Below are positions 1,030 through 62,200 of a DNA stretch of 64,000 bases, in pieces. The notes under the pieces were generated by a model that had not been told where the DNA came from, made no database searches, and worked only from the letters and a program-made list of their open reading frames with translations. A program made the position numbers and the translations under genes. This DNA comes from Marsupella aquatica (taxonomy: Eukaryota > Plantae > Marchantiophyta), in assembly GCA_973895155.1 (NCBI GenBank), contig OZ316899.1:7691241-7755240 (forward strand), written 5' to 3'. Numbering within the stretch: the first letter of the stretch is position 1; each line of letters opens with the position of its first letter.

Positions 1030-1044
1030 TGTGACGTCGATGAC

Positions 1045-1232: not shown

Positions 1233-1284
1233 CCGGATAGTGGCTAGTGGCTAGCGGATTTAGATTGGGGTTAGACTAAACCCG

Positions 1285-4715: not shown

Positions 4716-6088
4716 CCAGGAATCATTAGGCCAGTTTAATTAGTAAAATCAGGAGTGTACCGTAGGAAACACCTTAGTATAGTAACAAAAATAGGGAAAT
4801 ATAAACAATTAAGGGTGACTATGGAACCCGAGCCGAGGCCAAAAGTAAGGACGTCGGGGGAAACACGATTAGGGTTAGGGAGTGCTAAGTACTGGCGGCT
4901 ACTAACGGGAAGGAAGACCAGCCAAGGGGGGGGGGTAAGGACCGAGCGAAAGGACTGGCGGCTCATTTGCAAACACAAGCCAAGCGGACGACTACGGGAG
5001 GCCAACTGCTGTCCGCTGCTCAGGCAAGCACTCGGGGTGGAAGCAGATACCGACGATCAACTCAAGAGGGGTATGAGCAACGTCAATCAAGCTGCTCATT
5101 TTTGGGGATGCCTGTTAGAACGGGTAATTGAGTACATTGGGACCTACCAGGAAAAGAATCAGAGAGAGCGGCTTGAGAACGGCAGGAGTGGAGGGCCGCT
5201 CCTTTTGAGGAGGGCGGACGTGGAGGGAGGAGGCGTGAGTGGGCAGGGCGGGCTCAGATCTCCAAGTTTAGAATTAGGATCAGGACCAAGGGGCGGCCCT
5301 GACACTTAGCTTAGTGGGATTGCGGATCCACTGGTAAGAGCAACACTTGTGCTTGTGCCTTACTGTACATAGGTAGATTACAGTTAGGTAGATTAGGCTT
5401 ACGCTGCAAGGAATTAGGCGGATCCACTACCAGGATAAGTACTTGGGCAGCGGGGAGTTCAGGGCCTTCTTCCTTAGCAAGTTTTTAGTGCACCAACATG
5501 GCTGGGATCAAGTAGTTAAAGAAGCTCTCGGTTAGTTATACTGTGACCCTTGTGTATATTCATGTTTCCTCATACCTAAGAAATGAATAGAGTTGGCCTC
5601 ACGGCTTAGTTCGCAGATCTTGTATATGAGAAGTACTGTTTGTATGGCAAGTGCATGGTATAACTCAATCAGAAGGAGTCATTTTGCTATTTGTGTGTCG
5701 CATTAACTTGTTTGAAGATTGCCCGCATCAACCAAGAAGGGAGTAAGCAAGGTAGTAAGAGTTGGATGTGTCAAGCTTAGAGAGGTCTTAGCGGCTTACC
5801 CAAGCTAGTTGGGGATCATTCCGGCGGCGGAATCCAAACATACCTAAAGGAAAACCGAGAGAGGAGGACAAGGGAAGGCCGAGAATAGGCCGGCTACGTA
5901 TCTCATGACCCGATGAAGGATCTGTCCAGTATATGTGAGTAAAATGTTAATAGCAATAGTAGTAGAAGGAAGTTAGCAGCGTCCCATGCCGCTAAGCCGC
6001 AAAATCGGCCTTGCCAAGAGCGAAACCTGCGGGAATCGGCTTGAGCAGAGGGGTTTCTTGGGTTTAGGGAGCCATGGGACGCACCACA
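4704..6088 (+). mobile_element. 3' LTR (1385 bp), short relative of LTR family C
   Basis: Follows the PPT. The start TGTGATG..GCCAGGA and end GGGACGCACCACA resemble the 29806 and 34407 ends. Contains the shared TTCCG-N4-CGGAA motif at 5819. Confidence 0.85.
4755..5309 (+). pseudogene. truncated remnant of the LTR-encoded ORF (N-terminus only)
   Basis: GMSNVNQAAHFWGCLLE...TY matches GMNTVNQAGKFWGCLLE...TY in ORF 29994..30440. Confidence 0.7.
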
Positions 6089-24925: not shown

Positions 24926-25064
24926 AGGGTGAGAGACGGGGTATTTGATTTCAAGGAGTGACTTGACTTCAAATGGTCTTTGGTCAAGACTGTTCCAATG
25001 ATTAACCATCCGGATTTGATATTTTTATGTTTGCAGAGTTTGTTCCTAAACTCCACTTAGAGAT

Positions 25065-26085: not shown

Positions 26086-26460
26086 TCGTTATTTAAAAAT
26101 TTGGAGACTTGTAACATTGAGGGGAGGCCTATTACAAGTAAACAATTGTTATGGACTTTTGTATGGTTCCCGTTAGTGGGTGACAATGAAAATGTGACAT
26201 TACTCATGTGGCTATTCTCCACAAATTCGTACGCCAAAGATGTATTTTACATGGATTTGGAAATTTCAACTGGTGTTTAGGAAACTTGAAAGAGTGTTCT
26301 AGAAATTCCAGTTCCAAGTTTTGGAAACTTCATTTAAGGTTGTTGGATAATGTATTTATTTAATTTGGAAATTTTACCAAGCCACTTTGGAAAAAAGAAT
26401 TTCCAGAATTAGTGAAATCACTAATAAGACCCTTGTCGAGTAGTAGGGATAAAAAGCTGA

Positions 26461-29400
26461 TGTAGGGCAAAGAGGGGATTGTGGCCCGCACGAGGGATTG
26501 TGGGCCCGCACGATGGGACCTTCAAGACCACAACGTTGTCGCGAGGACTTAAAGTTAGGGGCTCCTCGGGCAAACTACGTGTTTCTGGCTGCGATCAGGA
26601 CAGGTGACAAGCACTTTTCGGAGCGAACTCTCACTCCTTTATATTTTTTACTTTTCTCACAAAGGTTACAATAGGTGCCCTTGAGTAAGCTTGCCCGCAA
26701 GAGTCTGGTAGCTGGCCCTACGGCGGGCCGCTACCTCTAACTTGTCGAGTAGAACTCCTCAAGTGACTAACTACTCAAAATTTGACGGAAAAACTATCCT
26801 CCTTAGCTCACAAAACCAAAAACTTGACTAGCTACTCCACTAGTCTAAAACAGCTCACACGGAACTCGGGCCTGGACCAACAAGGCTCCAAACTCGAGAA
26901 ATCCTCGCCTGGATCGACAAGACTCCAAACTTGAGAAATCCCCGCCTGGATCAACGAGACTCTAGACTCAAGAAATTCCCCGCCTGGATCAAAAACTCCC
27001 CACCTGGATGCCCCTCTGAGTTAGCATGCACGCAACCCAACCGGGAGGCCTCGCCCATCATCCCCTTTAAAAGCCATTCCTGAGCCAAAATCTTTCAGCA
27101 CGACATCCTCCCCCAGTAAACCTGAGCAGCCCTCTCGTAAGTCAAATGCACCCCTTTGTGCCCAGCCATGTCAGCATCATGGCTCTCTTTGAGAATTCGG
27201 TCTTTCTCATCCTTAGTATCCACAACCCTCTGCAACAACTGACTTGGGTCCTTATGCCTTCGCCACAAGTAGCCCTCCCTCAATAGGAACTTGTAAGATC
27301 TCTTCCGGATCTTGACGAACTCCTAGTAACTCCACTCTGGTTGCTTCTCCAAAGTGCTAATGTAACGCCCGATATCCAGTAACTCTCCCGAGTAGAGTTC
27401 TTCCTTGAACTCTAGACTTCCAACACTTTTGGTTCCGGTCACCTCGCCAACTCTAGTTGCTACCTCATTTCCGAATCTCGCCCTTGACAGCATGTCGGCA
27501 ACCGGATTATTTGCCCAATGAAATAGTTCCTCTCCTGATGGAGTGCCACCTTGGCACCCCAAAGCTCCCTCTTAACTTGGGCATATCTCCTTTGCCTTTC
27601 CGTAAATTTTTTTGCCCCAAATCCGATCGCATACCTTTCCCCATTCTCATCATCTTGCCCAACAGCCCACCCGGCTGCAAACGGACTCACATCAACAGTC
27701 ATGATCAGTGGTCGCCCGCTCTCATAGTCCGCAGCTTGGAGAACTGGCGGGCTCATGAGAGCGCTCTTAAGCTTAGCCATTGCTTCACTATGCTTGGGTA
27801 GCCATCTCCACTTAACCTTTTTCCTCAACAGCTCATAGAGCGGGTCTGCCAGGTGCAAGAAGTGAGGGATCCAGATCTTGTAAAAGACACAAGCACCAAG
27901 AAACCTTCAAACTTCCGGCACCGATTCTCAATCCTTCATCTCGCTAACAGCTCTCACCTTATCCATGTTTGGCTTCCTTCCATAAGATCCGCACATCATC
28001 AATGAACGGTCTTGCTTTTTCCGGAATGAACGGCTCCAAGATTTTACTCATTGCATTTTGCATGTGCGCAACTGAGTTCGTCGCCCCTTGAGGAAGAGTG
28101 CACATCCTCAAGAGGCCCAGCGGGGTCCTCATAGTCGTAATGTCTCGGCTCTCTTGCGCCAACTGGAACTGGTCGTAACCCGAAAACAAATCACCCATGG
28201 AGTAGATCGCCCTCCCAGCGAACTCCTCCGCAATCCATGAGTGGCCCAACTCCCACATTCCTGACGGTCACCTTGTTCGGAGGTTGCATATCCTGAATGA
28301 ACCTCAAGCTTCCATTCTTCTTTCTCACTGTAAACCATCTATTCGAGTAGGGAGCATCAGACCTCTCGAGAATCCTAGCACTCAGCTTCTCCTTAAGCAG
28401 TTCTGCAAGCTTTGGAGCTAAAGCCCGCGGAACCGAAATCGGTTTCAGATCCCACGGAACATGAGGGACAGTAAAGATGACCATCGATGTCACCTTACTC
28501 GGATCCGCACAACCAATCTCCTCAATCAAAAATGAGAATGCCTTGCCATGCTCCATTATCATCTTTTGAAATGCCACTTGCTCCACCTCCGTAACTAACC
28601 CATCCAAACCAATCTTAAGCTTCGCCAAACTCTCTTGAGTAAACTTATGCCCTATCCGATTAGTTGGCCTCAGCCTTGGTTCCAACCTTGCTTGATCCAT
28701 GACCTCCATCGCATTGTCCGGCAAAGGTATCGCCGTCGGCCTCACCTTCTTGTCAACCGTCTTGTATTTGGTACTTGAGTATACAAGCACGGCCATAGAC
28801 GAGTACTGCCTTTCCAACTCCTTCTCCAGCTTGTCCCTTCCCAAGTTAGACTCTGCACATTCGAGTGGCTCTTCCTCTCCATTATCCATCGTGTTTTCCC
28901 CTTCACAAGGAGCTAAGGAACGAGCACTCCGCCGATCCACTCTTTTCAACAAAGTGCCAAGTCGTTTTCCGGACCTGGACCAGATTCGGCACTCTCAGTC
29001 CTCAACCCTTTCCTATTCCTCTCGGGGTATTTACAAATGACAGCAAACAGCAAACAGTAACAGAAAACAGAAACTGGTAACAGGAAAATGAGTGGTAATT
29101 TTTTTTGAATTTCTTTTGAAATTTTTTTTTGGAAAAAAAAAGTTTTTTTTTCTTCGAATTTTTTTGAAATTTTTGCTAGCGCCCAAAGCTAGCCAAAAAA
29201 TGTTGTAATTTAAGTTTTTTTGGAAAATGTGACTTTTTAGAAAATATTTTGACATGGTTATTTTTCCTAGTAACAGTAACTTTTTTCTAGTAACAGGAAA
29301 ATTTTTGCTGGTACCAGTAAACCTGTTTCCTGTTTACTGTCACGCATGCCATACCCTTCCTCTCGTTTCCAGGTAAAACAGCCGGAAATTGAACCACCTC

Positions 29401-29805
29401 TTTCCCATCTTTGCTCCGAACCTTCACCATGAAGGTAGTATCATCCAGAACCTTCGTCTCCATCCTCCATTCAGTGATAAACGGCATGCCCAGTATCACC
29501 GGAAATAACAAGTGCTCATGAACAAAAATGTTACAAGCCTGCTTGACATTCCCGAACTTCACCATCACATTTGGACATCCGTCCCAAAGATAGTCCTTCA
29601 TTGAACTCACCGAGTTCACACTCCAAAGCAACTCATTGTCCACCGGCCAATTCCCCTTTTGAAACACCTTTGGATCCATCAAGCTGATCTTCGAGCCAGT
29701 ATCAATGAGCGCCCGCACCTTGCCTTCCATTCCTTCCAACTGGCACTCGCTCTCCGGACTTGCTCGAGCCCAGTATCCATCTCGGTAAGCATAACCGTTT
29801 CCTTT
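26461..29805 (-). mobile_element. divergent Ty3/gypsy remnant: protease, RT, RNase H, integrase N-terminus (core deleted), PPT and about 600-bp 3' LTR (26461-27060)
   Basis: ALIDTGS; DLFSGYDQF, TLPQGATNS, PFIDDV; TVDVSPFAAGWAVGQ; AGHKGV...YW; PPT AAAGGGGA next to LTR TGATGGG...CCCTACA. Confidence 0.88.
29025..29356. mobile_element. Mutator-like MITE (332 bp)
   Basis: 9-bp TSD TTCCTCTCG (29016-29024 and 29357-29365); termini GGGTAT...ATACCC; inverted TGACAG.AAACAG.AAACAG; AT-rich interior; splits the gypsy pol. Confidence 0.9.
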
Positions 29806-32800
29806 TGTGATGTCGTGCCAGGATCACGAAGTACTTAGTTAAGCCTAAAATAATGGCTAAATAAAGATTAGGTAGATATAATTAGGGAGTTATAAAGATC
29901 GAAGCCGATTTCAATATGTTCGGGGGAAATTGTGATGGGATCTGATCCAACGGTCGCGATTAAGTGGGATTAGGATTATGACCTAATCAGGGCTTGATCA
30001 CGCAAGCCATCAGGAGGCGGCTTCGTAAGGAGGGGACCGACACTCTGTACACTAGTGCAATTGCTTGTTCGATCAACCTAGCGAATCAGCTGCCGATCGA
30101 ACGGGGGAGGTGGTTTGAGAAATTGCGCAGGTTCTTGGCATTCGGTGGAATGAACACGGTGAATCAGGCAGGGAAGTTTTGGGGCTGTTTGCTTGAAGAA
30201 GCAAGGCAGCTGATACCTACGTATGAAGACGTTGAGCCGGAGCACGCAGCCAGAGAACGAGCAGAGCTTGCACGATTGTGGGGAATTCACAAATCGGCAT
30301 TCGTAGATACGGAGGAGGTATTGGAAAAGTTCTCGTGGACACCCATCAGTGTGGAGCTTGACAAATTGCTAATTCGGGAGAATAAGGTCGTGGGATCAGG
30401 GAGGCAATCAAGAATGTCGGGCAACCACTTTGGGAATTGAAGGGTCACACTGCAAAGTGGACGAAGGCAGCTATTCTTGGGGAGTATTCAGGCACTGAAG
30501 AGATGAAGCGCAAGGGAGGTTCGGCATCTGCAACTCCAGCAAAGCGAATAGGTTGGAGAGACCAATCAAGATGGAATCCGGGCCAATTAGAGATCGGGCT
30601 GTAGAAGATAAAAACATGACAGGGTGGGCAAACAGGTTACCTGCCGATTTACAATTACAGTTCGCAAGAGATGAGGATGAGGTCTTCAGTGCCGTTCAGG
30701 ATAACAAATATGCAGGATATATGAATGACACTGGGTTGGAGGGCTTTGTCAGGTTGCCCTGGAGAATGGTAGACATACCGGATGAGGATCTGTTGGACTT
30801 CGTGGGATGCTGGGAGGCTTCTTCCAACACAACGCTGCTGTATGGAAAGGTGTTCGAATTAACTCCTGCGCTTATCGAAGCCGTGTTCGCTTTACCAACA
30901 GGAAGGAAAACAAAGGTGGAGCAGAGGAAGACGTTGCCGGACGACCAGTTCAGGTCATTTCTAGGGCCTTCCACTAAGAATGGGTTTTTTAGGAATCAAT
31001 GTACCAACCCACATATAGGGCAGCTGATTGATTTCCTGAGAGTCACATTGCATTGTACCTTGCTGAGAGCAGAAATCGGCAAAGCCCAGGTATTTTTGGT
31101 AGAGAATATCGATGCAAGCCGAGACTACAACGACTATCTCTTAATGCAGTTAAAGAAGGCATTAAACGAAGAGAAGCAGAGCATTGGGGAGGGAGCGGTA
31201 TCCAGACTAGGGTACCATCTGCAATTGCTTTGCCGTTATGCAAGAAGCTAGTCTTTTGCACCAGTGTTGCCTATACAGGAGCGGATGCAGATCACTGCAC
31301 CACTTGAGGAAGTGGAGGAGGACGAGGAGCCTCTTAACATACGACGCCACGGGAGGAGGTCGGCAACACAGGCAACATGAGAACGGGAGCATTCCCCTAT
31401 CAAGGAGCCAGAGGTAGTAACATATGATGTAGTGAGAAATCCGTTACGCCGGCCTACTCGCAATAATCCATATGCAGGCATCCAGTTGGTCGAGAGGAAG
31501 ATGACTGCCGAAGAGAGAAAGAAATATGACGAGCGAATGGATTCGGAGACAGACGAGGAGGTAAGCCGAGGCCAGGAGAGGCCGGTTGTAAAAGCTTCTA
31601 ACAGAGCCCAAGTGAACGGATTCATGGTGGAAGGTCAACCAGCTGCAGCCCAACAATTTTCAGAGGAGGAGATTGGGGGCTTTGGAGGAGAGGTCGGCAT
31701 GTTAGGTAGTCAGGTCAATGTGGATGATTACGACGACGACTATGTCGATCATGGGGAGAGGCCGGTCCCAGGAGTTAGAACGATGGGAAGGTTTTGTAGA
31801 AGACTTCCCGCGGTCTTCTATGGCAAACCGGAGGACCAGAAAACGCCAAAATCTCCTCCACCAGATGTGACGCCATTGGAATTCGACAAGATGAAGGAAG
31901 CTTAAGCCGGGCTACATGAGAAGATTAAGGAGTGGGGGACCCAGAATGCAGAACACGAATGCCAGCTACTAGGAGGTGAGTGGCCAGAAGGAATAAGACG
32001 GCTTAGTGAGAGGCAAGCCGAACCTCTCACTAACTTTGACCAATTACGCGCTGAAGCTTGGGAGAGACAACCTCGATGGCAGATGCCAGTATCACCTGGG
32101 AGGTCAAACTATGCAAGAAATCGGGCTAAGGAGTATGGAGACATGTGTGGACTCTTAGCCTTAGAAATCTTCGGCAACGAGTTGGAATCCGGGCCATTTC
32201 TTAGAAAAGAAATGGCTGATCAGACGAGACTGGAGGAGGCAATGACATTGGAGCGATTGAAGAAGGAGGAAGTAATCGCTCGGCTTCGCTCCATGGAGGC
32301 CGAAGTTGCTAAGACAAAGTCTGCTCAACCAACTCAGCAGGATCTCTTCGCTAGGCAGCAGGAATTGGATGTGGCAAACAACCAATTGGATAACCAGCAG
32401 ATCAAGGAAAAGTTGACAAAGATAGAGCTAGAGTTAGCCGATTCAAAAGTAGAGGTACATGGTTTAAATCGCCAAGTTGAGAGGCTCAGAAAGACGGCTA
32501 AGGAGCAGGCCACCCAGAGCGAAAAGGCCTTGGTAGATGCCCAAAGGAAGTATGATAAGTTACTCGACCGGTTGGAGACCATGCGTGAAAAGCATGATGA
32601 GGCCATGTGCACGGCGGCCAATGATCACCTAAACCGGGTTCAACAGATACGCAAGGAGCTTCAAGAGGAGCTAACCAGGACAAAGCAGGCATGGACGAAT
32701 GAGGTCACAAAACTAGAAGGTATCAACGACTCCTTGAAAGCAGCCGTAGATAAGCAAGAGTTGGAGATCGTGCAGATCTTAAATGAGGAGTTGAAGACGG

Positions 32801-34407
32801 CCAAGGCCAAGATACTACGGCTTAACGATGAAGTTGAAGACGTATCTCAAGAATTGGAGGATGCCAAGGATAAGATGATCGGGCTGCAGAGGCGTGCCGA
32901 CAATCAAACGCAGAAATTGAAGAAGTATGTCGAAGCGGGATATGGGTCACCAACTGAAAGGCTTCTCGACAGTAGTATGGTAGGCGGAAATATAGTGAAG
33001 CCGAAGCCAAAGCCAAGCTCTCTGTTGTCAAGTGTGACTGGGGGCAAAGCCATGCAGTTGGTGGCAGACTTGGCAAAGACGTTCATGGGGCCAGGCGATA
33101 ATAAAGTTAAAACCCTTAAAGCCACTCCGGAGGAAGTCGAGAGCATGGCTGCTCACATTTGTGGTACTGTGGCCCTGAAGGCAGCGGTGGTAGAGGTAAG
33201 TACTGCGGATCAACTTGGAGCTGCGGTAACAGGTTTAGACAATGGTACTGCTTCTATGGACACACAGAACGTGAAACCGTGGGTTATTGAGACCAAGCGC
33301 ATCGGGGAAAAGGCTTGGATTGAGGAAATTAAGGCAAAGGCTCTCCAAGCCGTTTCCCAGGAGGATGCGGATGCAAATGCAGATGCCGATGCCAAGACCG
33401 ATGCCGGGGCCGGCAAAACAGAAGCCGAAGTGGTCGGGCCAGGGCCGATGGCAAGAGAAGGTGCAGAGTCGGAAGATTCGGACTTACCCCCGGTCATCTG
33501 ACAATTAAGGAGGGCCAGTCATCGGTTGGAAGGAGGACGTGGCGGCAGGAGAAGGGCTTGGGCCAGAAGGGCCCGGCCGTTGTAGGATGGGACATGGCAA
33601 GTAGCGCCCTGTTGGCTTAGATAGTAGTAGATGCTCGGTTCACACAGGGTTCCGGGCTATTCAAGTTTTTAGGTGATAGTTTTTTTTAGGATTATCGCGG
33701 TGGAAGGCCATGTGTGGTGGTTAGGATCTCTGTTGTTTTTTTTGAAAGCGCTGCAAGGATAAAAACCTTGGCAACGTGGTTTCAGGGGCTTTTTCTTAGT
33801 CAAGGCTTTAGTGTTAATCTGTATTGTTGTAAACACAGGAAGCTCTCGGCTAAATCTAGACCGCAGGGTATCAGTAAACCACCAATTCCCTTGGATTTCT
33901 GAGCAATTGTTTGAATTGAGTTGGCTTCGTTGCATAGTTCGCAAATTCTTGCCATCCAAGAAGTTGAGTGTTATGATATCTGTTGCTTGATCGATTAAAG
34001 TCAGATAGGGTGAACTGTTGAGCAAAATACAATCGCATTGCCTTGATTGGAGACTGCCCAAATCAAACTCTGAGAGAACAGTGAGGATTGAGAGTGTTAG
34101 TCAGTGAAGTGTGGGTTGAGTCAGTCTGAAAAAGACCTTCAACCGGCTTAAGAAATTAAGCCGTAGAGCTACATTCCGAGGGCGGAATACAAATATACCT
34201 GAAGAAGTTAAACAGGAATTAGGTGTCTCAGTTGTGCACAATTCACAAGCCCAGTGAAAGAATCGGTCCGGTAAGTGTGGACCCAAGGAGAGTATCGCGT
34301 TTCCAAGCTGAATAGCTGCCGTAAGGAAAGAGGACCGACATAACCAAGTGGTTTATGATCGGTTGAGGGTAGTTCTCGGTGTTAGAGGTCTTGGGAACCG
34401 TGCCACA
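29806..34407 (+). mobile_element. giant solo-type LTR, family C (4602 bp), carrying an internal gene; flanks do not match (CCTTT vs AGTTT)
   Basis: TGTGATG...GTGCCACA termini similar to LTR 4704-6088; shared hairpin motif at 34174; unrelated pol fragments on either side. Confidence 0.78.
29994..33501 (+). pseudogene. LTR-encoded protein, family C (about 1150 codons, several stops): PMD/Transposase_32-like domain plus long coiled coil
   Basis: ORFs 29994..30440, 30553..31251, 31432..31905 and 32083..33501. YMNDTGLEGFVRLPW...DLLDFV...LYGKVFELTPALIEAVFALPTG...NGF aligns by eye with the family A protein. Confidence 0.75.
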
Positions 34408-37400
34408 AGTTTCTTTGTACTCCATGCAGCGTCGTAGTTTCCTGTTAACTCCTTCCTTGTGTAAGTGGCCCCGTATCATGATGTACGGCCCCGCTTTTTG
34501 GAGGAATATGGCGGCAACTTCCTGGTTGGTGCCATCAGGGAGACTTTGCTACCTTCTCCTGGTCCACTTCAATACCCCGTTTGGATACCCAATGGCCGAG
34601 AAGCACTCCCTCTTCTACCCCGAAAAAACACTTGCCCGGGTGGAGCTTAAGGTTAACCTCCCGGCATCGCTGTAGAGTACGTCGTAGGTGTTTGGGGTGC
34701 ATGGCCACAGTTCCAAAGATGGCAAAGTCATCTATAAATATTTCCAAAAACTCCCGTAGGAAATCATGGAAAATATTCATCATGAGCCGCTGGAACATGG
34801 CCGGGGCGTTACACAGCCCGAACGGCATCCTCCAAAATGCAAATGTCCCCCACTCGGTAGTGAACGTGGTTTTTAGCTGATCCAAAAGGCGGATCCAAAT
34901 CTGATTGTAACCCAAATAGCCGTCAAGGAAGGTTTAGATTTCATTCCGAGCTACCATATCCAAAACCATGTCCGTGAAGGGTAATGGGTAGTGGTCCTTT
35001 TGGGTAACATCGTTCAGCTTACAGTAGTCCTAATAGATGCGGATCTTGGGTTTCCCTTCTGTGCCTCCCTTTTTTGGCACGATGACGATGGGAGATACCC
35101 AATCACTCGCCATTATCGGGTAAATGATATTCGCGGCCAGTAAATGATCGATTTCTTCTTTTACCAAGATTGAATATCTCGGGCTCATACATCGCTCGTG
35201 CTGCCGTACCGCGTGTGCGCCTAGGTTCAGGTCGGTCGTGCGTTCTCCTAGCTTGGGAGAGACACCCGTCAAGTCATGATGGCTCCATGCGAACACATCC
35301 TCATACTCCTTGAGTAGTGACTGAATGGATTTCTCGGCCTAAGTTGAACATCTTATCCATCCCCATGGTGTACTTCCGGTAGTGCTCCTTCCTGATGACT
35401 TCTACTTGATTACACAAGCCCGGGTCCAGGTTAGCGCCTAGCTCTGCTAAGCGGACTCCTCCGTACGTCGGAGGGGTTGGGTTCGAGTCTGGTGTTGCAT
35501 CCGCGTCTTCTTCCATTGGGATAGAAGGTCCCAGGATACTTGCTTCCGATGCTTGAGCCCCAAAATCTTGGCTGAGGTTGTGGTGGCCTTGCTTGCTGAG
35601 GGTTTGATGGTAGGCATAATGGCTTCAGCTCCCTACTTAGCTGGAGCTGCATTTTGCGTGTCCTTTGGGCTGAGACTTTGAGCGGGTTGCACCTCCGTTG
35701 AGGGGTTAGAGGAACTCGGGTTGAGGTTGCACGCGTCTTCCTTTGGGTAGTTCATGAGGTGGGTGTCTCGTGTTGCCTCTATCCCAAAAACATCTTCCTC
35801 GGAAACAGATGAGATGAGCTCTATCATGTTGAGCTCTTCTTCCTCTAAGATCTCTAAATCATATTCCTCCGGCCCCTGTGGTGTCTCTCCCTGATAGTCA
35901 TCCAAAGCCCATGACACTCGCACGGTGGGTGTCCCAAATCACAACTCTTTCTTTCCCCAATCCGTGACTACATTGCCCCCGTACAGCCATGGCCTCCCCA
36001 GCAGAACTGGATAAGAGGATGGTCTTACCGGCCTCATGACTAGGAAGTTGAGGTAGAACTCAATGCCCCCTACAAGAGTGAGCACCCGTGTGAGCGTGCC
36101 CAAGGGAAGGACCCGTGCCCCATTTGCCAATCTGATGGCCCGGGCCGTGGGTTGATACGTGAGATATCCCAGTTTGATTGACGTTTCTTCAGTCATGATG
36201 TTGACTCCTGCGCCGCCATCGACCAGGACCATCTTAATGGTGCATTGTTTATCTCAATAGATATGTCCGGCGCCCCTAGGTCTTTGCAGATCATGTTGCA
36301 ATTTGCCGTCCCTACCCGGGGTAGCCGCCTCGTCATCGACCCGTGAGTAACTGCCTCAGTTGCTATCGATATTGAGGGTTATTGTGCAGTAATTGCCCTA
36401 CTATTGCCGTGACCGGGCAACTTTTCACGTCTTGTTGGATATTGTAGTCCTCCTTCTTCTCTTCCTTGGGACGGTGCTGGGCTTCCTCCTGTTGCTTCTC
36501 TTGCTCATGTCGTTGGGCGGCTTCAGCTGCTTTGATATCCTTGTTGATAGTCTTTTGGTATTCGCGTGCTTCATAAGCCTCCAACTGCTTCTTAACCAAT
36601 TCTTTGATACGGGGGAAGAATAGCTTTGGGTCATCTCATCGGTAATCGTCATCCTCCTCTCGGGAGATTTCTACTGCTGGCTGCACCGGGGTAGTATCTT
36701 GCTTCTTCCGACGCTTCTCTTCCTGTTTCTCTTGCTTTTGTTCGGCTCGAGTCGCCACATGGTAGCACTTGACTTCGTCCGTCAGGTTTGGGTGTTCCAC
36801 CACATCCACCAGGTTTACCCATTCCGTGGTATCATCTTGCCATTCTACAATGATCATTTGTACGACAGCATCGTTAGTGCAGGACCTCCTAGGGCCGGCC
36901 TGGCTGCGCTTGCTCGGGCAGCGATCACCAAGGGGCAATTGGCCATGGAGCGGGCCTCAGTTTTGCGAACTTGACATAGTGGAGTGCCCCGGCCATCTCC
37001 CTGCCGTCTTGGCTTGGTGCATTCCCTGGCAAAGTGGCCCGACTTCTCACAGTTGTAACAAACTGGGGATCGCCAAATCCCGGGTTTAGGAGGAATGCTC
37101 GGGTTACTGATAACCTGGACATTCCTTCCATTGTTTGGGTAAGGGTAGGCCGTTCTACCAGCTAAGTTGCGTGGACCCATCGTGGAAATCTGGTAGACAG
37201 AATCTGTGGCGTCTTCGAAGAAGAACTCGATGGACTCCGGTTCTGGCCCCGGGCTGTCAGCGTCCTCCAATTCCACCTGATGGACCCTATTCTTCCATCG
37301 CGGGCATTCTTGCACCACGTGCCCAAATTGGAAACACTTGGAGCACCATGCATGTGCTCGGGTCTCGGAAGGTTTCTTTTTCTCCACGGGCTTGTCCGTA

Positions 37401-38632
37401 AGGTGTACCGACAATGCTTTGAGATGATCCATAATTTTGTTGAGCTTGTCTGCTTCAGTAGCCTTTGGATCGGGGATCGTTTGTCAAACACAAGGCTTGA
37501 CCTTCTCTTCCTTCTTAGCTCGCCTCTTCTTCTTCTTGCTCTGGCTCTCGCTCTCCGAATCACTTCTTGATGAATTGGAAGTGGAGGATCCGTTGGTTGA
37601 ACTCAAATCCGAACTAGATTCCGTCTCCGAACTAGACGAGGTCGAACGATGTTTCTTCTTCTTCTTCTTGCGTTTCTTCTTCTTCTTGTCGTCCGGTTTG
37701 GAGTCACTGTCACTGAAGGTCTCATATTTGCCCTTATGTTGGCGTGCCCGTTGACTTTGCCGAGAGTTATAAGTGGACTCCCGGTAGGTTTTGGCGCACG
37801 CTATGGCCGCTTGTATTGAAATTGGATTATTTTGGCGCACCCAAAATTGCATATTTGTGGGCAAACCGTGGAGAAACCACGTAAGCTGGAGCGCATCCCC
37901 TGGCCTGGGCCGGATCTTGGCGGCAAGTTTCTGAAACTTCTGAATGAACTTTTGCAAGGATTCCTTCTTTCCCATGCAAAGTTGGCCGATCTTTAATAAA
38001 GAACACTGCTCTGATCCAATGGCACAAAACTCTTGCAGCAACGCCGCTTGGAATTGTGCCCATGTAGTCCCGGGTGGCAGCAAGTTGTACCATGGACGAG
38101 ATTCTCCCCGCATCACACCGGGGAGGATGGTTAGCTTAATGGCATCTTCTCCATTGGCCTTAGCAGTGGCTTCAAATTCATCCAACCATTCATCCGGATC
38201 GTCCCCATGACGCCCTTTGAAAGGTCGATAATGAAATCATGACCGTTGTGATACTTGTGGGGGAGCTTGGGCAGCGTGGGCCATAGCCGGTGGGGCTGCT
38301 GCCATTGGTACTGCTAGCGGTGGCGCAGCAAGGACCGGAGTAGGACCGGCTGGTCCGGACCCCAAAGGTCCCGATGGTATGTTCATTCGTCGAGGCAATA
38401 GCAAATCCTCTGAGCTTGAGGATTTGGAGCTTGTTGTGGCTGCACTTTCTTGTTTGCTGGTCAATCTTCTCAAGTAAGCGGCTTGAGATCGGGTGACGGG
38501 CATCTACTCGTATAATGACAATGGTTAGTAACAAACTGGGGCCAGGTGTACCTCACCCTGGTGCATTCGCACATGTCTCCCCTCTACTATAAGTAGAGTG
38601 CCCCCTCCATCTAGCGCCAAAAACAAAGGCTA
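34408..38632 (-). mobile_element. internal region of a gypsy element: gag with CCHC knuckles, protease, RT; RNase H deleted; integrase truncated at 34408
   Basis: ORFs 37484..38185 (gag), 36854..37432 (CSKCFQFGHVVQEC, CYNCEKSGHFAREC), 35939..36232 (LVDGGAG), 34535..34915 (FIDDF). Confidence 0.92.
38601..38619 (-). promoter_or_regulatory. primer-binding site complementary to the 3' end of tRNA-Asn
   Basis: Minus strand TGGCGCTAGATGGAGGGGG vs plant tRNA-Asn(GTT) 3' end ...CCCTCCTTCTAGCG-CCA as recalled (1 mismatch); 13 nt downstream of the LTR end at 38633. Confidence 0.75.
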
Positions 38633-41600
38633 TGTCACGTCGTCAGCCTAGGCCTTAACCCGGGCTTTGGCTTAGACAGGCACATCCTTCGTAAATATGA
38701 GGGTTTGGGTAGGGAGGGACGCAGGAAATGCTCCTAACTCACGTAAACTAGCGCTAAGTGCGCTTATTGTTATGTACAGACACCTCCTAGGTATAGTTTG
38801 TGTTCCACCGCCGGAACGTACCTTAGTCAACACGGGGTTGACCCTGGATTACGGACTTCTAGGCCTTTGTGTTACCGCCTTCGATCCGGATCCATTAGTA
38901 CAAGTGCTCAACCCCGGCTTGCAACCCCATATCCGTAACCTGCACCCCATGCATGCTTGGCATAACGTGTTCGGCCCAGCATTGATACTTGCACACGAGA
39001 CTCATACATGCATTTACACATAAACATAAATCTCGATTTACACGAAGGAATTGAGGGGAAAGGATTTCATTCATTTATGATCATACATTTACGATTGGTT
39101 GACCCGACACCTCGTGAACGCACGGGCCCAAGGCCGAGGAGTATACACTACAACGGAGTGAGCTCTAGTTGTATACCCTCCCCTTGGCGCTCCGGTACTT
39201 CACCAAGTTCAAGACTCCCCACGTGTACCGCGAATGGCCAACTTCTGAGTCTAAAATCCCCCCCCCCCTTGCCTCTACCAGGGGGCTGCTAAATACTAAG
39301 GGTTGAGAACCAGTCTGGCCTCGTGCCCGAATCTACGCTAACTATATCCTCGCTAAGCTGGTTACGGCTTGTCCTATTAGTCTAACCTATTCTATACAGG
39401 CTGGCTAATGTGTCAGCGCCGCTATCTTCTGGTCGGCACTTGTCCTAACAGCCTGTTTTAGCTACTCCTAGTTCCATTCTAAGCCTAACCCTTCGCTAAT
39501 GCCTGGTGCGCTTTCCAGAGCCGTCCGAGTGGGAGCGGCCATCCCGCTGCCTACGGAGCCTGTCGTTGTCCATCTTGAGGAGCTGGATTTGGTCCAGCAG
39601 AGATTCGTTCTCTCGCTTCGCTGCGTCCGTCTCCTCCGCTGCCTCCTGGCATGCCTCTTCCAGCTGCTGGGCGTCGCTCGTCAGCTTGCCCACCATCTGG
39701 TTTTGCTTCTCGGCTTCGGTTTGAAGCCGTGCTACTTTGGCCTGTAGGGCGGCTATCTCCGCAGTGTCACGCTGGGCCCGCTCTTCGGCCTCCTCCAGGC
39801 CTTTCTGCCAGATGACAGTTTGGTTCTTCAAACTGTCAACCTAGGTCCGGAGCCGTGCAATCTCGGCCTCCTTCCCAACTTTGGCCTGTTTTCTGGACCC
39901 TCGGGCTCAACCAAGTCTTCTACCGCTTTGACTTTTGCTCTCGGCCCGGCCTGGTTGATCGTGTCTAAGGTTGCGATTACTGCCTTGTCTGGTACCACTT
40001 TGGCCACGGCTACGGCTATGGCTACTTGTGGAGGTGGGGTGGGTGAGGCCTGCATGGTCGCCAGACTTTGGGCCTCGGGTTGGGGCCGTCTGTCCAAGGC
40101 CGTGAAGACTCACCTAGCTGGGACCAACTTAGTTATGTTGACCCGGGGAAGGGTTCATCGATCAAACCGGGCGTACCACTCAAGAATGATCTCGATGTGG
40201 CTTGCAAAATACGCCTTCCCGCCGATGTATAGCGACTTCCTTCGCCGCTCCATCTCTTCATGGAACTTCTTAGCGAAGTACGACGCCCACTTCCTAGGTC
40301 GATAGTTCTCGACCTGGATAACCTAGGCAGCAGAGATCTCACCCGGGGTTCCATCATGTGGAGGGCGTACCTCTGGAACTCCAGTCGCTTGGCTATCTCG
40401 GGGATGAGGCAGGTCCTCATCACAAACCCGTTGTCCACTGATCCCTCGGAGGGAAAACTCGAGGATTGGTACTTGGCTCCTTTGCCCCCGGGAGCCCGTG
40501 ATTTGACTCGGTGATCTCCCTCGGGTAGCCCAAAGATCATCCTAAGCCGCTCCACTATGAGGGACATATTCCTCCCCTGCAACCGAGTATGTTGATGGAC
40601 ATCATCATAATTCTTGACAAATTCTGTCATGTCCTCCCCGTAGTACCTGCAGGTGTTCCAGGGGAGAGGGGCGAGGTGCTCAAACCCCTGAGTCTTCAAG
40701 TACACCGCATGTTTGGGGTGGAGGATGTTCTTATGCACGTTGTCCCCCATGCGGTGCATTGTCACCTTCGCTGCAGCTACCGTGGCCATGGGTAACCCGA
40801 ATACAGCTGCGGGTTCCTTCCTCTTCTTCCCCCGAGACTGGCTCGGGGAGGGTGACACCTCCCCATCTTCTCGATTGGGTATAGGTAGTGCCACCGCCGT
40901 TAGTATTGGGGCCGGGGCGGCTACGGTCACCGTGTTGTCTGTTGGAGCCGCTACTCGGGTCCGGGCCTGGGGAGGGGGCGATGTAGTCCCGGATCCCTGA
41001 GTGTTTGCTCTTCTGGGTCGCCTAAACAGGGGTAACGTAGCCTCTTCATTGTTGTTGAGATCTACGGCGTTGATGATGGATCTCACCTGTATGGGCGGGG
41101 CGATTGGGTTTGGCTAGGGGCTGAGGCTGAGCCTGAGCCTGAGGCTGAGCTGGTGCTGGTGCGGGCACGGGCACGGCTGGGCTGGCACCGGTGGTTGATG
41201 GTACGGTTGCCATGAAATTCTGCAGGTGCCGGTAGAGGTTTTCTGAAGCAAGTGTAGACGCCCTTGTAGACTGGGTAGTGTTGGACTTGCTGTTGATGAT
41301 GTCCCGGACCTGAGCGGGGATGTGGTCAAAGTAGTGCCGTTGTAAGTTGATCGTGCCTGGGATATTGAAGACCACATCCGGAAGCCAAAGCAAGGCTTCC
41401 CAGAAACTGATATATTTGCCTCCGTCAAAGAAGTACCCTGATATCTCTTTGGGTCAATAAAGCTCGCTCTAGGACGGGTAGTCAAAGTTAAGGAGATAGT
41501 GATGGCGGCCTGCTAGGTAGATGGCTCTCTCGTACTCGCATTCAATCTTGTATCATCGCGTGTTGGCGTATTTTAATGAGTCGGCCAAGTGCAGCCCAAT

Positions 41601-42130
41601 AGACAGGAACTACGTCCAGAATCGCAAGGCCGAACTAGAAAGGATCGTGTGCGACATTCAGGGGAGATAGAAGGCGACTAAGGATAAGCAAGAGAACTGG
41701 GGTCGAAGCTGGCGCGTGAACTGAAGAACTGGTGCACTGCAAAGGATCGGCCCCCTTTTTCTACCCTGAGAGCTCGCTGATCGCCCAACGCCTCCCCGTC
41801 GCTTATAGGCCGAGCCTTTCACGCTTGCAGTGTACCGGCCACTCCACCGGTCCGGGTCAGCACGTGTCAATGGCCGCCTCCCAAAGTTTGTTATACGGAC
41901 CCGAGGGGGAAAGGTGAGGGCCTATTACATGCTCGCAACCCGGGCGTGCAAATGGCAACCCGCCGCCAGCCTGAACACAAACGCCCCTTATTGACTAATG
42001 ATTTCCTACTCATAATGGCTACCTAAATACTCTCATTATGCTAATAATTATGGCCTAAGATACCCCTAAGGCGCGTGCTAAGCGTCGTTAGGCCGAATCA
42101 CTCATTACCCACCATACCGGCGGCGTCACA
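38633..42130 (-). mobile_element. 5' LTR, family A (3498 bp), containing a degenerate long ORF
   Basis: TGTGACGCCGCC...GACGTGACA on the minus strand; directly upstream of the PBS and gag; colinear with 59285-63285 except for a deletion of about 0.5 kb. Confidence 0.92.
39496..41657 (-). pseudogene. LTR-encoded protein, family A (stops, frameshifts, internal deletion)
   Basis: ORFs 41046..41393, 40133..41086, 39828..40097 and 39496..39831 are homologous to the 855-aa ORF; ATG (MSHTIL) at 41657. Confidence 0.88.
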
Positions 42131-44596
42131 CCGGTATCCCACGCAATTTGTTGGGAGAAGTCCCCCAGCAACCCATTCAAAAATATGCCCGGTGCAAAGA
42201 GTTCGTGGTACTCCAGATTATGCCCATTTGGGTTCGGGCAAGGATAGACCCCAGCTCGCGCGGGAGTCGGAGTGCTAACGTCTAGCCCTTGAAATATGAC
42301 AGCAAAGGGGGTTGGGTTTGCACGGGATGCATGGTTCTCTTGGACAGCCGTGGAGGGTATCAGGGGTCTCTGTAACCGCAGTCTTGGGCCCGGGGCTGGC
42401 TTTTGCTAACCCAACTTTGATGGTCGCACTGGCCTGGTTGATGGAATCCAGGGTCGCGATAATTGCATCATCTGATACAAACGGAGGGACAGCAGCGGCT
42501 GGTTGTGGGGCCAGGGTTGTGGGCCTCACGACCACCGGACTTCTGGCCTTGGGCTGGGGTCGCCTTTCTAGGGCCGGGAATACCCACCGTGATGGGGTTA
42601 GCTCGGGCTCGTTGAGCCAAGGGAGACTTTGGCGGTCAAAACGGGCATACCACTTGATGATGATTTCAATGTGGCTTGCGAGGTACGCCTTCCCGCCAAG
42701 GTACAAGGTCTTGCTTTGCCACTCCATCTCCTCGTGGAACTTCTTGACAAAGAAAGAAGCCCACTTCCTAGGCTGGTAGTTTTTGACCTGGATGACTTGG
42801 GCAGCAGATATTTTGCCCCTTGGTTCCATCATGTGGAGGGCGTACCTCTGGAACTCTTGTTGCTCCGCTATCTCCGAGATGAGGCATGTCCTCATCAAGA
42901 ATCCGTTGTCCACTGCTCCTTCGGTCGGGAAGCTAGAGGACTGATACTTGGCTCCCTTGCCCCTGGGAGCTCGTGATTCCACCCGATTTACTCCTTTGGG
43001 TAGGCCAAAGATCATCTTGAGCCGTGCTTGGCTGAGGGACATCACTCTTCCATGCGCACGAGTTTGTTGGCGGGCCTCGTCAAAGTTCTGGATGAACTCC
43101 ATCATATCCTGCCCATAGTACGTGCTAGCATTCCAAGGGAGAGAGGCAAGGTGCTCAAACCCTTGGGTCTTCAGGTAGCATGCATGCTTGGGGTGGAGAA
43201 TGTTCTTGTGGACATTCTCCCCCATGTGATGCATGGTCAGCTTGGCCACCAATACTGTGGCCAAAGGCAGCCCGGATAGAGCCGCGGGTTCCTTTCTCTT
43301 CCTACCCCAAGACTGGTTCCCGGGGTGACTTGTAGAGGGGGACATCTCCCGTTCCTCTCTATCGGGTGGCGGCAGTGCTACTGCCATAAGTATTGGTGCT
43401 GGGGCAGCCACTGTTACCGTGTCATCTACCAGAGCTGCCACTCGAGTCCGGGCTTGTGCGGGTGGTGACGTGTTGCCCGGCTTGTGTGTGCTCGCCCCTC
43501 AAGATCGCCGGTGCAAGGGAGGGTGAGCCTCTTTGTCCTTGGAACTGATGTTTACTGCGTTCACCACAGATTGTACCCAGAGGGGTGGTGCGACCGGTGG
43601 TGGAGATTAGCTTGGCTGAGGCCGAGGTGGTGTTGGTGAGGGCACCAATGAGTCGACAACGGTTGTAGCTGGAGGAGGCGCCATAAGATTCAGCAAGTCT
43701 GAGGGGAAGCCAAGTGAGGTCAGGAAGGATGTCTTGCCCGGATCTGCATTACCAAACTGATGGTTTATGGAAGCCTGAACTTTGGCAGGGATATGGTTGA
43801 AGTGGTGCCGCTGCAAGTCTATCGTGCCTGGGAGTGTGAAGACCTTGTCTGGAAGTTGAAGAAGTGCTTCTTGGAAGCCAAACTTACTTTAGACCGTCGA
43901 AGAAGTATTCACAGATCTCGTTGGCTCGACAGAGCTTGCTTTGGAACGGAAGGTTGAAATCGCCGTTATAGTGAGAGCGCCCGGCTAGACGGATGAGTCG
44001 CTCGTACTGCCTTTTGGTTTCATACCGGCGCGGATTAACTTTGGCCAACAACTTTGCTAAATGATTTTTGACGGATAGAAATTGAAGCCAAAACCGAAAA
44101 GCCTAACTGGACATAATCATGACAGACATACAAAAAACGGTGGTGGAGGATTAAGGAGCAGATGAGCAAGCTAGGGTCAAATTTGGCGCGAGGAGTGAAG
44201 TGTTGATGCTAAGCAAGAGAACGGCCTGCCTTTTATACCCTGAGAGCTTGTTGGCCGAATGGCCCCTTCCTCTTTCCGATAGGCCAATCCTTTCACGCTT
44301 GTAGTGTACCAACCACTCCGCAGGTCCGGGTCAGAGTGTGTCGGCGAGCCGCCCCCTTGAGTTGTTATACGGATCCAAGGAGGCATCCCTACACGCTTGT
44401 AACCCGGTAATATGAATGGCGCTCCACCGCCAGCCCGAGCGTAAATGCTCCTTATTGACTAATGATGTCCTAGTTGTGATTACTACCTACTTTAGTGTCG
44501 TTGTGCTAATAACTACGGACTACTATGTCCATATCGCGCGTGCTAAGCATGGATTAGACCGGATCACTCATTAACCGTCGTGCTGGCGGCGTCACA
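42131..44596 (-). mobile_element. 5' portion of an older, diverged family A LTR with its ORF (ATG about 44129), interrupted at 42130 by a younger family A element
   Basis: Terminus GGCGGCGTCACA at 44596; ORF 42275..43441 contains HPKHACYLKTQGFEHLASLPWN. Confidence 0.88.
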
Positions 44597-59284: not shown

Positions 59285-62200
59285 TGTCACGTCGTAGGCT
59301 TCGGCCTTAACTCAGACTTCAGCTTAGACGGGCACATCCCTTGTAAATCTGAGGGTTCGGGCAGGAAGGGAAGCACGTAATGCACCTTATTCTCGTAAAC
59401 TAGCGCTAAGTGCGCATACTGCTAAATACGGACACCTCCTAGGTATGGTTTGTGTTCCGCCGCCGGAACGTACCTTAGTCGATAGCAGGATCGACCCCGG
59501 CTTAAGGGCTTCTAAGCCTTCGTGCTGTCCGCCTTCGATCCGGATTCGATGATACAGGTCCTCAACCCGTGCTCGCAACCACTTACCCGCAGGCTGCACC
59601 CTGTGCACGTCTCGGGTAGTGCGTTCGGCCCGGCGCTGCCACCCATATACGAGAAACCCACACACATATGCGCACACATGCATACAATCTCGATTTACAC
59701 GAAGGAAAAATGATGGGAAAGGATTTTACTACAAAGGGAACATATGCGTACACTTAGTTGACACGACAGCCCTGGAATGCACAGGTTCAAGGCCAAGGGT
59801 GCACACTACAACGGAGCCCGGCTCCGCACTCGCCCGACGAGCTTAGTCCTACCCCCTCCCCTTGGTACTCTGTCATTCCCAGAGGTCGGGACTCCCCGCA
59901 TGTCCCGCGGATGTCCGACTCTGAAACTAAAAACCCCCCCTGCCTCTACCGAGGGGTGCACTAAATACTAAGAGCCGAGGAACGGGGTGTCCTCACACTG
60001 AAGATTCGTTGACTAAGGTCCTAACTAAGCTGACAGTCAGGCCGGAAAATGGTTGTGTCTTATTAGAAGATCCTAATTTACGCAGGCTGGACAGCAGGGC
60101 AGCGCTGCTGTACCTAAGGCAGGTGCCTGTCCCAAGAGCCTGACTAAGCCAATCCTAATCCTAATCTATTCCTACTCCGCCGCTAATGCCTGGCACGCTT
60201 GCCAGAGCCGCCCGAATGGGAACGGCCATCCCGCTGCCTTCGAAGCCTGTCATTGTCCGCCTTGAGGAGCTGGACCTGGTCCAGCAGAGATTCATTCTCT
60301 CGCCTTGCCGCGTCCGTCTCCTCTGCTGCCTCCTGACATGCCTCCTCCAGTTGCTGGGCGTCGCTCGTCAGTTTACTTGCCAGCTGGTCCTGCTTCTTGG
60401 CCTTGGTTTGGAGCCGCGCCATCTCGGCCTGCAGCGTGGCTATCTCCGTCGCGTCCCGCTGGGCTCGCTCCTCGGCCTCCTCCAGGTCTTTCTGCCAGGT
60501 GACAGCTTGTTTCTTCAAACTGTCAATCTGGTTCCGGAGTCGTGTAATCTCGGCCTCGTTCCCAGCTTTGGCCTGTTCGGCTAGGGCGGTAAGAGCGTAC
60601 GCCTTTGCTAACAACTCATCGGCGGCTGCAACCTTGGGTCGTAGTTGCAGAAGCTCAGCCTCTTGAGCCGCCACTTCGTTCTTTAGGTACACGGACTCCA
60701 CCCGGTACCGCTCTATCCTCTGAAGGGCCTCCGACTGGGCCCGACCTGCCTTTACGGCGGCAACCAACTCCTGATTGAAGAAACAGGCTACCTTCCGGGC
60801 CATGAACTCCCTGGTATCTCGGGCAATTTGATGAGAGAAATCTCCCAGAAGCCCGTTCAGAAACGTACCCTGTACGAAGAGTTCCGGGTGGTCCAAGTTG
60901 TGCCTGTCCGGATTTGGGCACGGGCAGACATCAACACGCGCAGGGGCCGGGGCAGTGACGTCCAGCCCTGGGGACATAACGTTGGAAGGGCCTGGAGTGT
61001 CCTCCTGCAGCGATGTCCGGTTCTCCGGAATTGCCACCGGCGGGTCCTTGGGAGACCCGGGTTCGGGTAAGACCTCTGCCGTACCAACTTCTGTACTTAG
61101 CCCGGCTAGTTGGGTCGCATCAACGGTTGCGACGACCGACCCCTCCGGCGCCTCCTCGGGTACGATTACAGCTATTTGTGGAGGTGGGGTGGGTGAAGCT
61201 GGCATGTCCACTGGACTTCGGGCCTCGGGTTGGGGCCGTCTCTCCAATGCCGGAAAAACCCACCTAGCTGGGACCAGCTTTGTAACGTTGATGCGGGGAA
61301 GGGTTCGTCGATCAAACCGGGCGTACCACTCAAGAATGATTTCGATGTGGCTAGCGAAATACGCCTTCCCGCCAATGTACAACGTCTTCCTTCGCCGCTC
61401 CATCTCTTCATGGAATTTCTTAGCGAAGTACGACGCCCATTTCCTAGGTCGATAGTTCTCGACCTGGATAACCTGGGCGGCGGAGATCTCCCCCCGGGGT
61501 TCCATCATGTGGAGAGCGTACCTCTGGAACTCCAGCCGCTCAGCTATCTCGGGCATGAGGCAGGGCCTCATCACGAACCCGTTGTCTACTGATCCCTCTG
61601 AGGGAAAACTTGAAGATTGGTACTTGGCCCCCTTGCCCCCGGGAGCCCGTGATTCGACTCGATGATCACCTTCGGGTAACCCGAAGATCATCTTGAGCCG
61701 TTCTTCTGTGAGGGACATATTCCTTCCCCACAGCCGAGTCTGTTGACGTACGTCGTCATAATTCTTGACGAATTCTGTCATGTCCTCCCCGTAGTACCTG
61801 CAAGTGTTCCAGGGGAGAGAGGCGAGGTGCTCAAATCCCTGAGTCTTCAGGTACACCGCATGCTTGGGATGGAGGATGTTGCTGTGAACGTTTTCCCCCA
61901 TGCGATGCATCGTCACCTTGGCTACGGCTACCGTGGCCAACGGTAACCCGGATGCAGTGGCGGATTCCTTCCTCTTCTTTCCCCGTGACTGACTCGGGGA
62001 AGGTGATACTTCCCCATCCTCCCGATCGGGCCTGGGGAGTGCCACTGCGGTTGGTAACGGGCCCGGGGCGGCCACGGTCACCATGTTGTCTGCTGGGGCC
62101 GCTCCTGGGGTCAGAGCAGGGGGTGGGGACGATATAGTGTCGGCCCCCTGCGCGCTTGTTCCTCTGGGTCGCCTGGTCAAGGGTGGGGTAGCCTCGTCGT

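What the first reader, a model, noticed from the sequence alone, without database searches (positions are those of the whole stretch)
29806..34407. A second, highly diverged family of gene-carrying LTR (4.6 kb)
Seen: no obvious nucleotide similarity to family A apart from the termini and one hairpin, yet the protein architecture is the same. KYAGYMNDTGLEGFVRLPW...EDLLDFV...LYGKVFELT...VFALPTG...NGF...C..P.I...IDFLR..LH aligns with KHAVYLKTQGFEHLASLPW...EDMTEFV...LWGRNMSLT...IFGLPEG...NGF...C..PEI...LEFQR..LH, and a long coiled coil follows. Inference: the ORF-in-LTR design is an old, lineage-wide trait under selection, not a one-off capture.
Basis: partly seen in the sequence, partly recalled or inferred. 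Interest (0 to 1): 0.78.

Follow-up and report, generated by a model that had tools for sequence, protein, structure and literature searches.

The report
Anti-silencing-like gene inside retrotransposon ends
A high-copy jumping-gene repeat from what is likely a liverwort carries, inside what is most likely its 4.6-kb terminal repeat, a gene (broken in this copy) whose core is predicted to fold like VANC21, a DNA-binding protein that some plant transposons use to switch off host silencing, so the element likely carries its own anti-silencing tool at both ends.

Summary
Largely confirmed, and it leads further. 29806-34407 is a real dispersed, high-copy unit: contigs of public runs fix both ends exactly. 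It starts TG, ends CA, and its closest relative in the window (68% over 631 nt) is a 3' LTR after integrase and a polypurine tract. It was never seen paired. This copy has no target-site duplication, and its flanks come from two different Gypsy elements. The core of its ~1,100-codon sense ORF is homologous to the family-A LTR ORF (28%, E 2e-21). Family-A cores are under strong purifying selection (dN/dS 0.07-0.09). Named relatives are all from the liverwort Calypogeia fissa. New: the confident model (pLDDT 92) matches VANC21 bound to DNA (Z 8.5, next 2.2 of 48,161 chains). Best reading: a VANC/PMD-fold plus coiled-coil accessory gene placed in the LTR, likely anti-silencing; function untested. 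The architecture is known from internal ORFs of seed-plant Tat elements; five paper searches found no plant LTR with such a gene inside.

The parts
29806..34407 (+). Unit B: 4,602-bp LTR-like dispersed repeat, TG...CA, unpaired, no target-site duplication; likely a recombinant solo LTR
29806..30149 (+). 5' non-coding part; two TATA-like words near LTR positions 72 and 86 (promoter role inferred)
30150..33501 (+). Sense ORF of about 1,115 codons, broken in this copy: frame breaks near 30391 and 30548, stops at 31249, 31378, 31903
   Evidence: (table 4)
30150..30299 (+). Start of the N-terminal domain (FW motif), shared with family A, the 4704 LTR and Calypogeia proteins
   Evidence: profile built without B hits 30159-30299 at iE 3e-4
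30640..31248 (+). Core domain, about 200 aa, intact here; predicted VANC21-like fold
32410..32913 (+). Coiled-coil-like stretch
   Evidence: heptad scan; not alignable to family A
33502..34407 (+). 3' non-coding part, 68% identical over 631 aligned nt to the 3' LTR at 4704 onward
34173..34188 (+). Short hairpin motif shared by all four LTR families of the window
29290..29805 (-). Left flank: protease region of an unrelated Gypsy element (RT about 29% to element A), cut by B
34408..38602 (-). Right flank: decayed gag-protease-RT of element A, RNase H missing, cut by B just before the integrase zinc finger
38603..38619 (-). Primer-binding-site-like sequence 13 nt behind family-A LTR A1 (tRNA-Asn type: recalled, not tested)
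38633..42130 (-). Family-A LTR A1 in 5'-LTR position, carrying a broken, partly deleted copy of the ORF
42140..44596 (-). Family-A LTR A3, cut short at its 3' end by A1
59285..63285 (-). Family-A LTR A2 in 3'-LTR position (after integrase and polypurine tract); ORF 62819-60183 with one early stop
4704..5900 (+). B-related 3' LTR after integrase and polypurine tract; keeps about 39 codons of the ORF, the rest deleted; right end not fixed

Best explanation
29806-34407 is a dispersed high-copy repeat, most likely the long terminal repeat of a Ty3/Gypsy retrotransposon of a liverwort-like plant, and it holds a sense gene whose core domain is predicted to fold like the DNA-binding anti-silencing protein VANC21 and likely shields the element's own copies from host silencing. 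Shown: the ends, the homology to the family-A LTR gene, purifying selection in family A, and family A's gene lying between polypurine tract and primer-binding site, hence in the LTR. Predicted: the fold. Inferred: the gene is read from a promoter at the LTR's 5' edge; the core binds short words in the non-coding LTR DNA, the coiled coil oligomerises it, and silencing marks are kept off the promoter. Sitting in the LTR would put the gene at both ends and let it survive in solo LTRs, acting in trans on relatives that lost it. This copy is a decayed solo LTR, likely left by recombination between two separate B insertions, which would explain the missing duplication and the unrelated flanks.
For: Ends. 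B-related LTR in 3'-LTR position, score 152 against shuffle maximum 39. Homology. Selection. Model pLDDT 92, pTM 0.88. Foldseek top hit 9lnj_A VANC21-DNA, probability 0.96, TM 0.59, other listed rows at most 0.22; VIA Z 8.6, rmsd 3.8 over 197 residues; in the wide search Z 8.5, rmsd 3.8 over 196, next row Z 2.2, 1 of 48,161 chains above Z 5. Core 28% between families while nearby RT and integrase pieces are 68% and 58%, the conserved-enzyme, fast-accessory pattern reported for VANC (PMC5735166, passages). No membrane helix. TTAG is strand-enriched in non-coding LTR parts.
Against: B is never seen paired, has no target-site duplication (3 of 3 related solo LTRs do), and no primer-binding site appears among the listed right flanks. 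Foldseek E is only 0.096 and identity 9-12%; Z 8.5 is near the level the tool calls common. No Pfam DUF1985 or PMD hit in 34 members. The same fold family includes MAIN/MAIL host proteins, so fold does not fix function. B's core is net acidic (23 K+R, 28 D+E) and lacks a basic nuclear-signal motif, unlike family A. No tandem motif array in B; TTAG enrichment is weak in B (15 and 22 of 200 shuffles reach it) and the word was chosen after looking. The RT comparison uses the B-related element, not B's own unseen pol.
Confidence: 0.55

Rival explanations
1. Same LTR-borne gene and fold, different job: a chromatin-tethering or integration-targeting cofactor, a plain trans-activator, or a self-limiting repressor, rather than a remover of silencing marks.
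For: VANC is structurally related to MAIN/MAIL host regulators (PMC13547354; bioRxiv 2024.09.27.615353), whose loss releases transposons (PMC5418596). Functions of Tat PMD-coiled-coil ORFs are unknown (PMC4408406). No motif arrays in B.
Against: The only solved match is an anti-silencing factor bound to DNA; the PMD-C proteins are themselves reported to counter Polycomb silencing; fast change between families with purifying selection within them fits host conflict.
Confidence: 0.27
2. B is not an LTR but a separate mobile cassette (non-autonomous or DNA-transposon-like), or an internal extra-ORF region moved as a block.
For: No pair, no target-site duplication, no primer-binding site seen; VANC itself is a Mutator-like transposon gene.
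Against: TG...CA ends and the hairpin shared with bona fide LTRs; DNA-level relative directly behind integrase and polypurine tract; family-A homologue bracketed by both priming signals; no terminal inverted repeat among 15 inverted pairs of 60 nt or more.
Confidence: 0.1
3. The ORF is a captured passenger that no longer matters to the element.
For: All four copies in the window are broken or truncated, and related LTRs lack the ORF.
Against: dN/dS 0.07-0.09 between subfamilies with dS 0.46-1.3; indels avoid the ORF among B copies; gag-pol beside it is just as decayed.
Confidence: 0.05

Closest known systems
VANC anti-silencing proteins of VANDAL (Mutator-like) transposons, Arabidopsis; VANC21-DNA structure 9LNJ/9LNK
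   Same: Predicted fold of the whole core (Z 8.5-8.6); accessory transposon gene diverging faster than the enzymes; a coiled coil, predicted to dimerise VANC21 (PMC13547354).
   Different: Retrotransposon, not DNA transposon; liverwort-like host, while VANCs are described as dicot-specific; 9-12% identity, no DUF1985 Pfam hit; no motif tandem arrays in B; activity untested.
PMD-coiled-coil and Tr28-coiled-coil extra ORFs of Tat/Ogre/Retand Gypsy elements (PMD-A)
   Same: Accessory ORF with a PMD/DUF1985-like core followed by a coiled coil (PMC4408406 section 6; fold link PMD-DUF1985).
   Different: Those lie in the internal region, 5' sense or 3' antisense; moss Tat-like elements were reported to have none. 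Here the ORF is outside the priming signals, in the LTR; no PF10536, PF04195 or PF03078 hit; an extra N-terminal domain of unknown fold.
MMTV superantigen gene in the retroviral LTR
   Same: Protein-coding gene tied to the LTR (LTR deletion abolishes Sag, passage; its place in U3 is recalled).
   Different: Animal retrovirus, membrane immune modulator, unrelated protein.
env-like ORFs of Athila and SIRE
   Same: Sense accessory ORF downstream of pol (PMC7264820).
   Different: Those lie before the 3' LTR and often have membrane helices; none here.

Membership tests
Ty3/Gypsy LTR | TG...CA termini and sharp ends across many dispersed copies | tested here: met
Ty3/Gypsy LTR | 4-5 bp target-site duplication around a solo LTR | tested here: not met
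   CCTTT versus AGTTT; flanks are from two elements, so recombination may have removed it; 3 of 3 related solo LTRs have one
Ty3/Gypsy LTR | Two direct copies flanking gag-pol | not testable with these tools
   No genome held; contigs too short
Ty3/Gypsy LTR | Primer-binding site behind the 5' copy | tested here: inconclusive
   Not among listed B flanks, 19 rows hidden; present behind family-A LTR A1
Ty3/Gypsy LTR | Polypurine tract and integrase before the 3' copy | tested here: inconclusive
   Met for the B-related LTR at 4704 and for A2; not seen for B itself
VANC | VANC21-type fold | tested here: met
   Predicted model; Z 8.5-8.6, rmsd 3.8, 196-197 residues
VANC | DUF1985 sequence profile match | tested here: not met
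   0 of 34 members in the families listed at E up to 1 (25 of 42 families shown)
VANC | Encoded by a VANDAL Mutator-like transposon | tested here: not met
   Context is Gypsy LTR
VANC | Dense same-strand target motifs in non-coding parts, often tandem | tested here: inconclusive
   TTAG enriched in A and 4704 LTRs, weak in B, chosen post hoc; no tandem array in B's non-coding parts
VANC | Sequence-specific DNA binding and demethylation | not testable with these tools
   needs bench work
Tat/Ogre PMD-coiled-coil extra ORF | PMD (PF10536) sequence match | tested here: not met
   one distant relative hits Transposase_32 at E 0.006, below cut-off
Tat/Ogre PMD-coiled-coil extra ORF | Globular core followed by coiled coil | tested here: met
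Tat/Ogre PMD-coiled-coil extra ORF | Position in the internal region, between the LTRs | tested here: not met
   Family-A ORF lies outside primer-binding site and polypurine tract
Tat clade | RT phylogeny and additional RNase H | tested here: inconclusive
   No second RNase H or chromodomain hit in the pieces scanned, but copies are decayed; no reference RT set at hand
env-like ORF | Transmembrane helix | tested here: not met
   Highest 19-residue hydropathy 1.37 (B), 1.13 (A2)

The most novel reading that the evidence does not exclude
Liverwort Gypsy elements run a sequence-specific anti-silencing system from inside the LTR: gene and target sites sit in one repeat, so every solo LTR is a self-contained anti-silencing cassette, and the VANC/PMD fold was a retrotransposon tool before seed plants, the likely source of PMD-A, MAIN/MAIL and VANC rather than a late capture.
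Probability: 0.3. Interest if true: 0.9.

Novelty: new variant of a known kind. Interest (0 to 1): 0.72.

Why it matters
Whether plant mobile domains began in Gypsy elements or in host genes is called fully open (PMC5418596); moss Tat-like elements were reported to lack extra ORFs (PMC4408406) and VANC was proposed to come from a captured MAIN-like gene in dicots (PMC13547354). A selected VANC-fold gene in liverwort-like Gypsy LTRs would move the fold on retrotransposons much deeper in land plants and makes the question testable by structure-guided phylogeny. It also shows that surveys may miss accessory genes hidden in LTRs, and would give retrotransposons a candidate sequence-specific anti-silencing system in which solo LTRs stay coding.

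Tried and rejected
No genome held, so no paired-LTR search. Word-index protein searches: none at E 0.001 for the B core or A core; 4 hits with a profile. Two metagenome contig scans confirmed no locus among 473 and 591 pattern matches. No RNA holder listed: no evidence either way. PDB by sequence: 2 chance-level rows. Viral structures: best E 0.016 with TM 0.36, rmsd 15, not taken. N-terminal domain model poor (pLDDT 63, 9 sequences) and no Foldseek match: uninformative. Rfam: none at gathering score. The protein atlas did not complete. One contig crosses the right junction without difference but has 30 letters on the short side, one under the tool's bridging rule, so it is only a hint. Substitution test on B variants is weak: 18 ORF rows of the 40 shown (607 hidden), 10 at third positions, p 0.04, 8 synonymous. 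Rejected: B as LTR of the left-flank Gypsy (opposite strand, cut in protease); env-like role; assembly artefact (repeat present in 4 of 4 runs). The core tree (34 rows) has unresolved deep branches, so no order of origin is claimed. No complex prediction was run.

Full report
Setting. The window is a nest of plant transposons: Gypsy and Copia pieces and a Ulp1-protease transposon. No whole genome is held. The host is therefore inferred to be liverwort-like.

Are the ends real? B begins TGTGATGTCG at 29806 and ends GTGCCACA at 34407. Six public runs of four studies hold part of it; four were laid as contigs. B is covered end to end by thousands of variant contigs in 4 of 4 runs, so it is a high-copy repeat. 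Contigs of the left neighbour, a Gypsy protease on the minus strand, go on with other letters behind 29805 in 2 of 4 runs among the listed rows. At the right end depth falls from 3556 to 66, 598 to 129, 5468 to 507 and 946 to 119, and 13 contigs leave the window at 34407/34408 with mixed flanks (23 rows listed, 19 hidden). The right neighbour is the pre-integrase region of element A. The two flanks thus belong to different elements, and there is no target-site duplication, whereas 3 of 3 related ORF-less solo LTRs have perfect 5-bp ones. The simplest inference is recombination between two B insertions.

Is B an LTR? It has no second copy in the window, and no primer-binding site shows among the listed right flanks. 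Indirect evidence is good. B's 3' part aligns at 430 of 631 nt (score 152, shuffle maximum 39) with the repeat starting at 4704, which follows an integrase and a polypurine tract. That LTR also keeps the first 39 or so codons of B's ORF and then jumps to just after its stop. Family A brackets the homologous ORF directly: A2 (63285 to 59285) follows integrase and polypurine tract, and A1 (42130 to 38633) is followed by a primer-binding-site-like sequence and gag. A1 and A2 are different insertions, so family A is not seen as a true pair either. One short hairpin is shared by all four LTR families.

The protein. B's ORF runs from 30150 to 33501 with two frame breaks and three stops in this copy. 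The core is homologous to family A (28%, E 2e-21; 0 of 500 shuffles). The first helix of an N-terminal domain is shared too (iE 3e-4 with a profile built without B). The coiled coils are similar in kind only. Full-length relatives repeat the layout N-domain, linker, core, linker, coiled coil. Pfam names nothing: 1 of 34 aligned members has a sub-threshold Transposase_32 hit.

Selection. Between family-A copies the core has dN/dS 0.07 (A2/A1, 203 codons) and 0.09 (A2/A3, 205 codons); the N-domain 0.13-0.15; linkers 0.25-0.49. Among B copies 10 of 12 listed indels (6 more hidden) lie in the 27% outside the ORF, p 8e-5, and the other two are this copy's own breaks. A and the B-related element share 68% over 79 RT residues and 58% over 207 integrase residues, against 28% for the A and B cores; B's own pol is unseen.

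Fold. AlphaFold2 with 34 sequences gives pLDDT 92, pTM 0.88. Foldseek's top row is VANC21 bound to its target DNA (E 0.096, probability 0.96, TM 0.59). VIA-align gives Z 8.6, rmsd 3.8 over 197 of 203 residues, VANC21 293-525. Against 48,161 representative chains VANC21 is the only row above Z 5 (8.5; next 2.2). The Z is moderate, but it stands alone and spans the whole domain. Which named VANC21 domain this range is could not be checked: the structure paper is not held.

Mechanism. VANC21 binds a short motif in non-coding parts of its transposon and removes methylation across it (PMC5735166, passages). VANC/DUF1985 is structurally related to PMD proteins (PMC13547354, passages; bioRxiv 2024.09.27.615353, passages). 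I infer a nuclear DNA-binding protein, oligomerised by its coiled coil, that keeps cognate LTR promoters active. TATA-like words lie about 110 nt (A2) and 260-270 nt (B) before the start codon, and none of the patterns tried occurs in B's 3' part. Whether the ORF lies in U3 with its own promoter or in R/U5 at the head of the genomic RNA is open. TTAG is enriched on the element's sense strand in non-coding LTR parts (0-2 of 200 shuffles in A1 and A2, 0-5 in the 4704 LTR, 15 and 22 in B); it was picked after looking, includes a stop codon, and is only a lead. Against the reading: B's core is net acidic and has no basic nuclear-signal motif, and B has no motif arrays.

Comparison. PMD plus coiled-coil extra ORFs are known in Tat lineages IV and V, inside the element; moss Tat-like elements were reported without any (PMC4408406, passages and sections 6 and 11). 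Reviews place extra ORFs in the internal region (PMC7264820, parts 1-2 of 3), and LTRs up to 5 kb are known in non-chromoviruses (PMC6317226, passages). PMD ancestry is called open (PMC5418596, passages). A meeting report only mentions the VANC structure (PMC12859917, passages). Phrase searches for an ORF inside a retrotransposon LTR returned 0 papers or only retroviral and mammalian ones by their listing; Marchantia with plant mobile domain gave 2 listings, not read. The library lacks most subscription journals, Steinbauerova 2011 was not read, Sasaki 2022 is not held, and no supplements were seen; those of PMC6317226 and PMC4408406 may list LTR-overlapping ORFs. The scan's own index gave nothing by sequence or place and one unrelated fungal note by words.

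Verdict. Real feature; a new variant of a known kind. LTR identity of B about 0.9, VANC/PMD-type fold about 0.85, anti-silencing function about 0.55 overall. It is not a member of VANC or PMD-A by sequence or context, but most likely works like them.

Noticed in passing
window 1030-3346 (+), 19000-16563 (-), 48999-46577 (-): Three 92-93% identical solo LTRs of 2.3-2.4 kb with perfect 5-bp duplications, no long ORF, tandem 26- and 33-bp repeats near the 5' end, and the same hairpin; 3' part related to family A (233 of 326 nt). Possible trans-dependent clients of the LTR gene.
   Followed up: partly
window 38620-38632 (-): The primer-binding-site-like sequence starts 13 nt after the LTR end, longer than the 0-5 nt usually allowed.
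   Followed up: no
window 42130-44596 (-): Two family-A LTRs of different subfamilies lie head to tail, A3 cut at its 3' end by A1.
   Followed up: partly
window 19457-26085 (+): Transposon-like gene run with a Lys-rich protein, a weak DNA-methylase-like piece fused to a Ulp1/C48 protease, and a NIF-like phosphatase.
   Followed up: no
window 12793-15521 (-): Broken DUF7869 transposase-like genes.
   Followed up: no
window 26000-29805 (-): A second, distant Gypsy (RT about 29% to element A), with an AT-rich insert at about 29034-29333 and cut by B in its protease.
   Followed up: partly
window 50628-54793 (-): Decayed Ty1/Copia element.
   Followed up: no
window 9041-9768 and 55746-57800: Tandem arrays with 158-bp, 83-bp and about 575-bp units.
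   Followed up: no
window 34933-34407 (-): Element A jumps from the end of RT to the pre-integrase region; RNase H is missing.
   Followed up: partly
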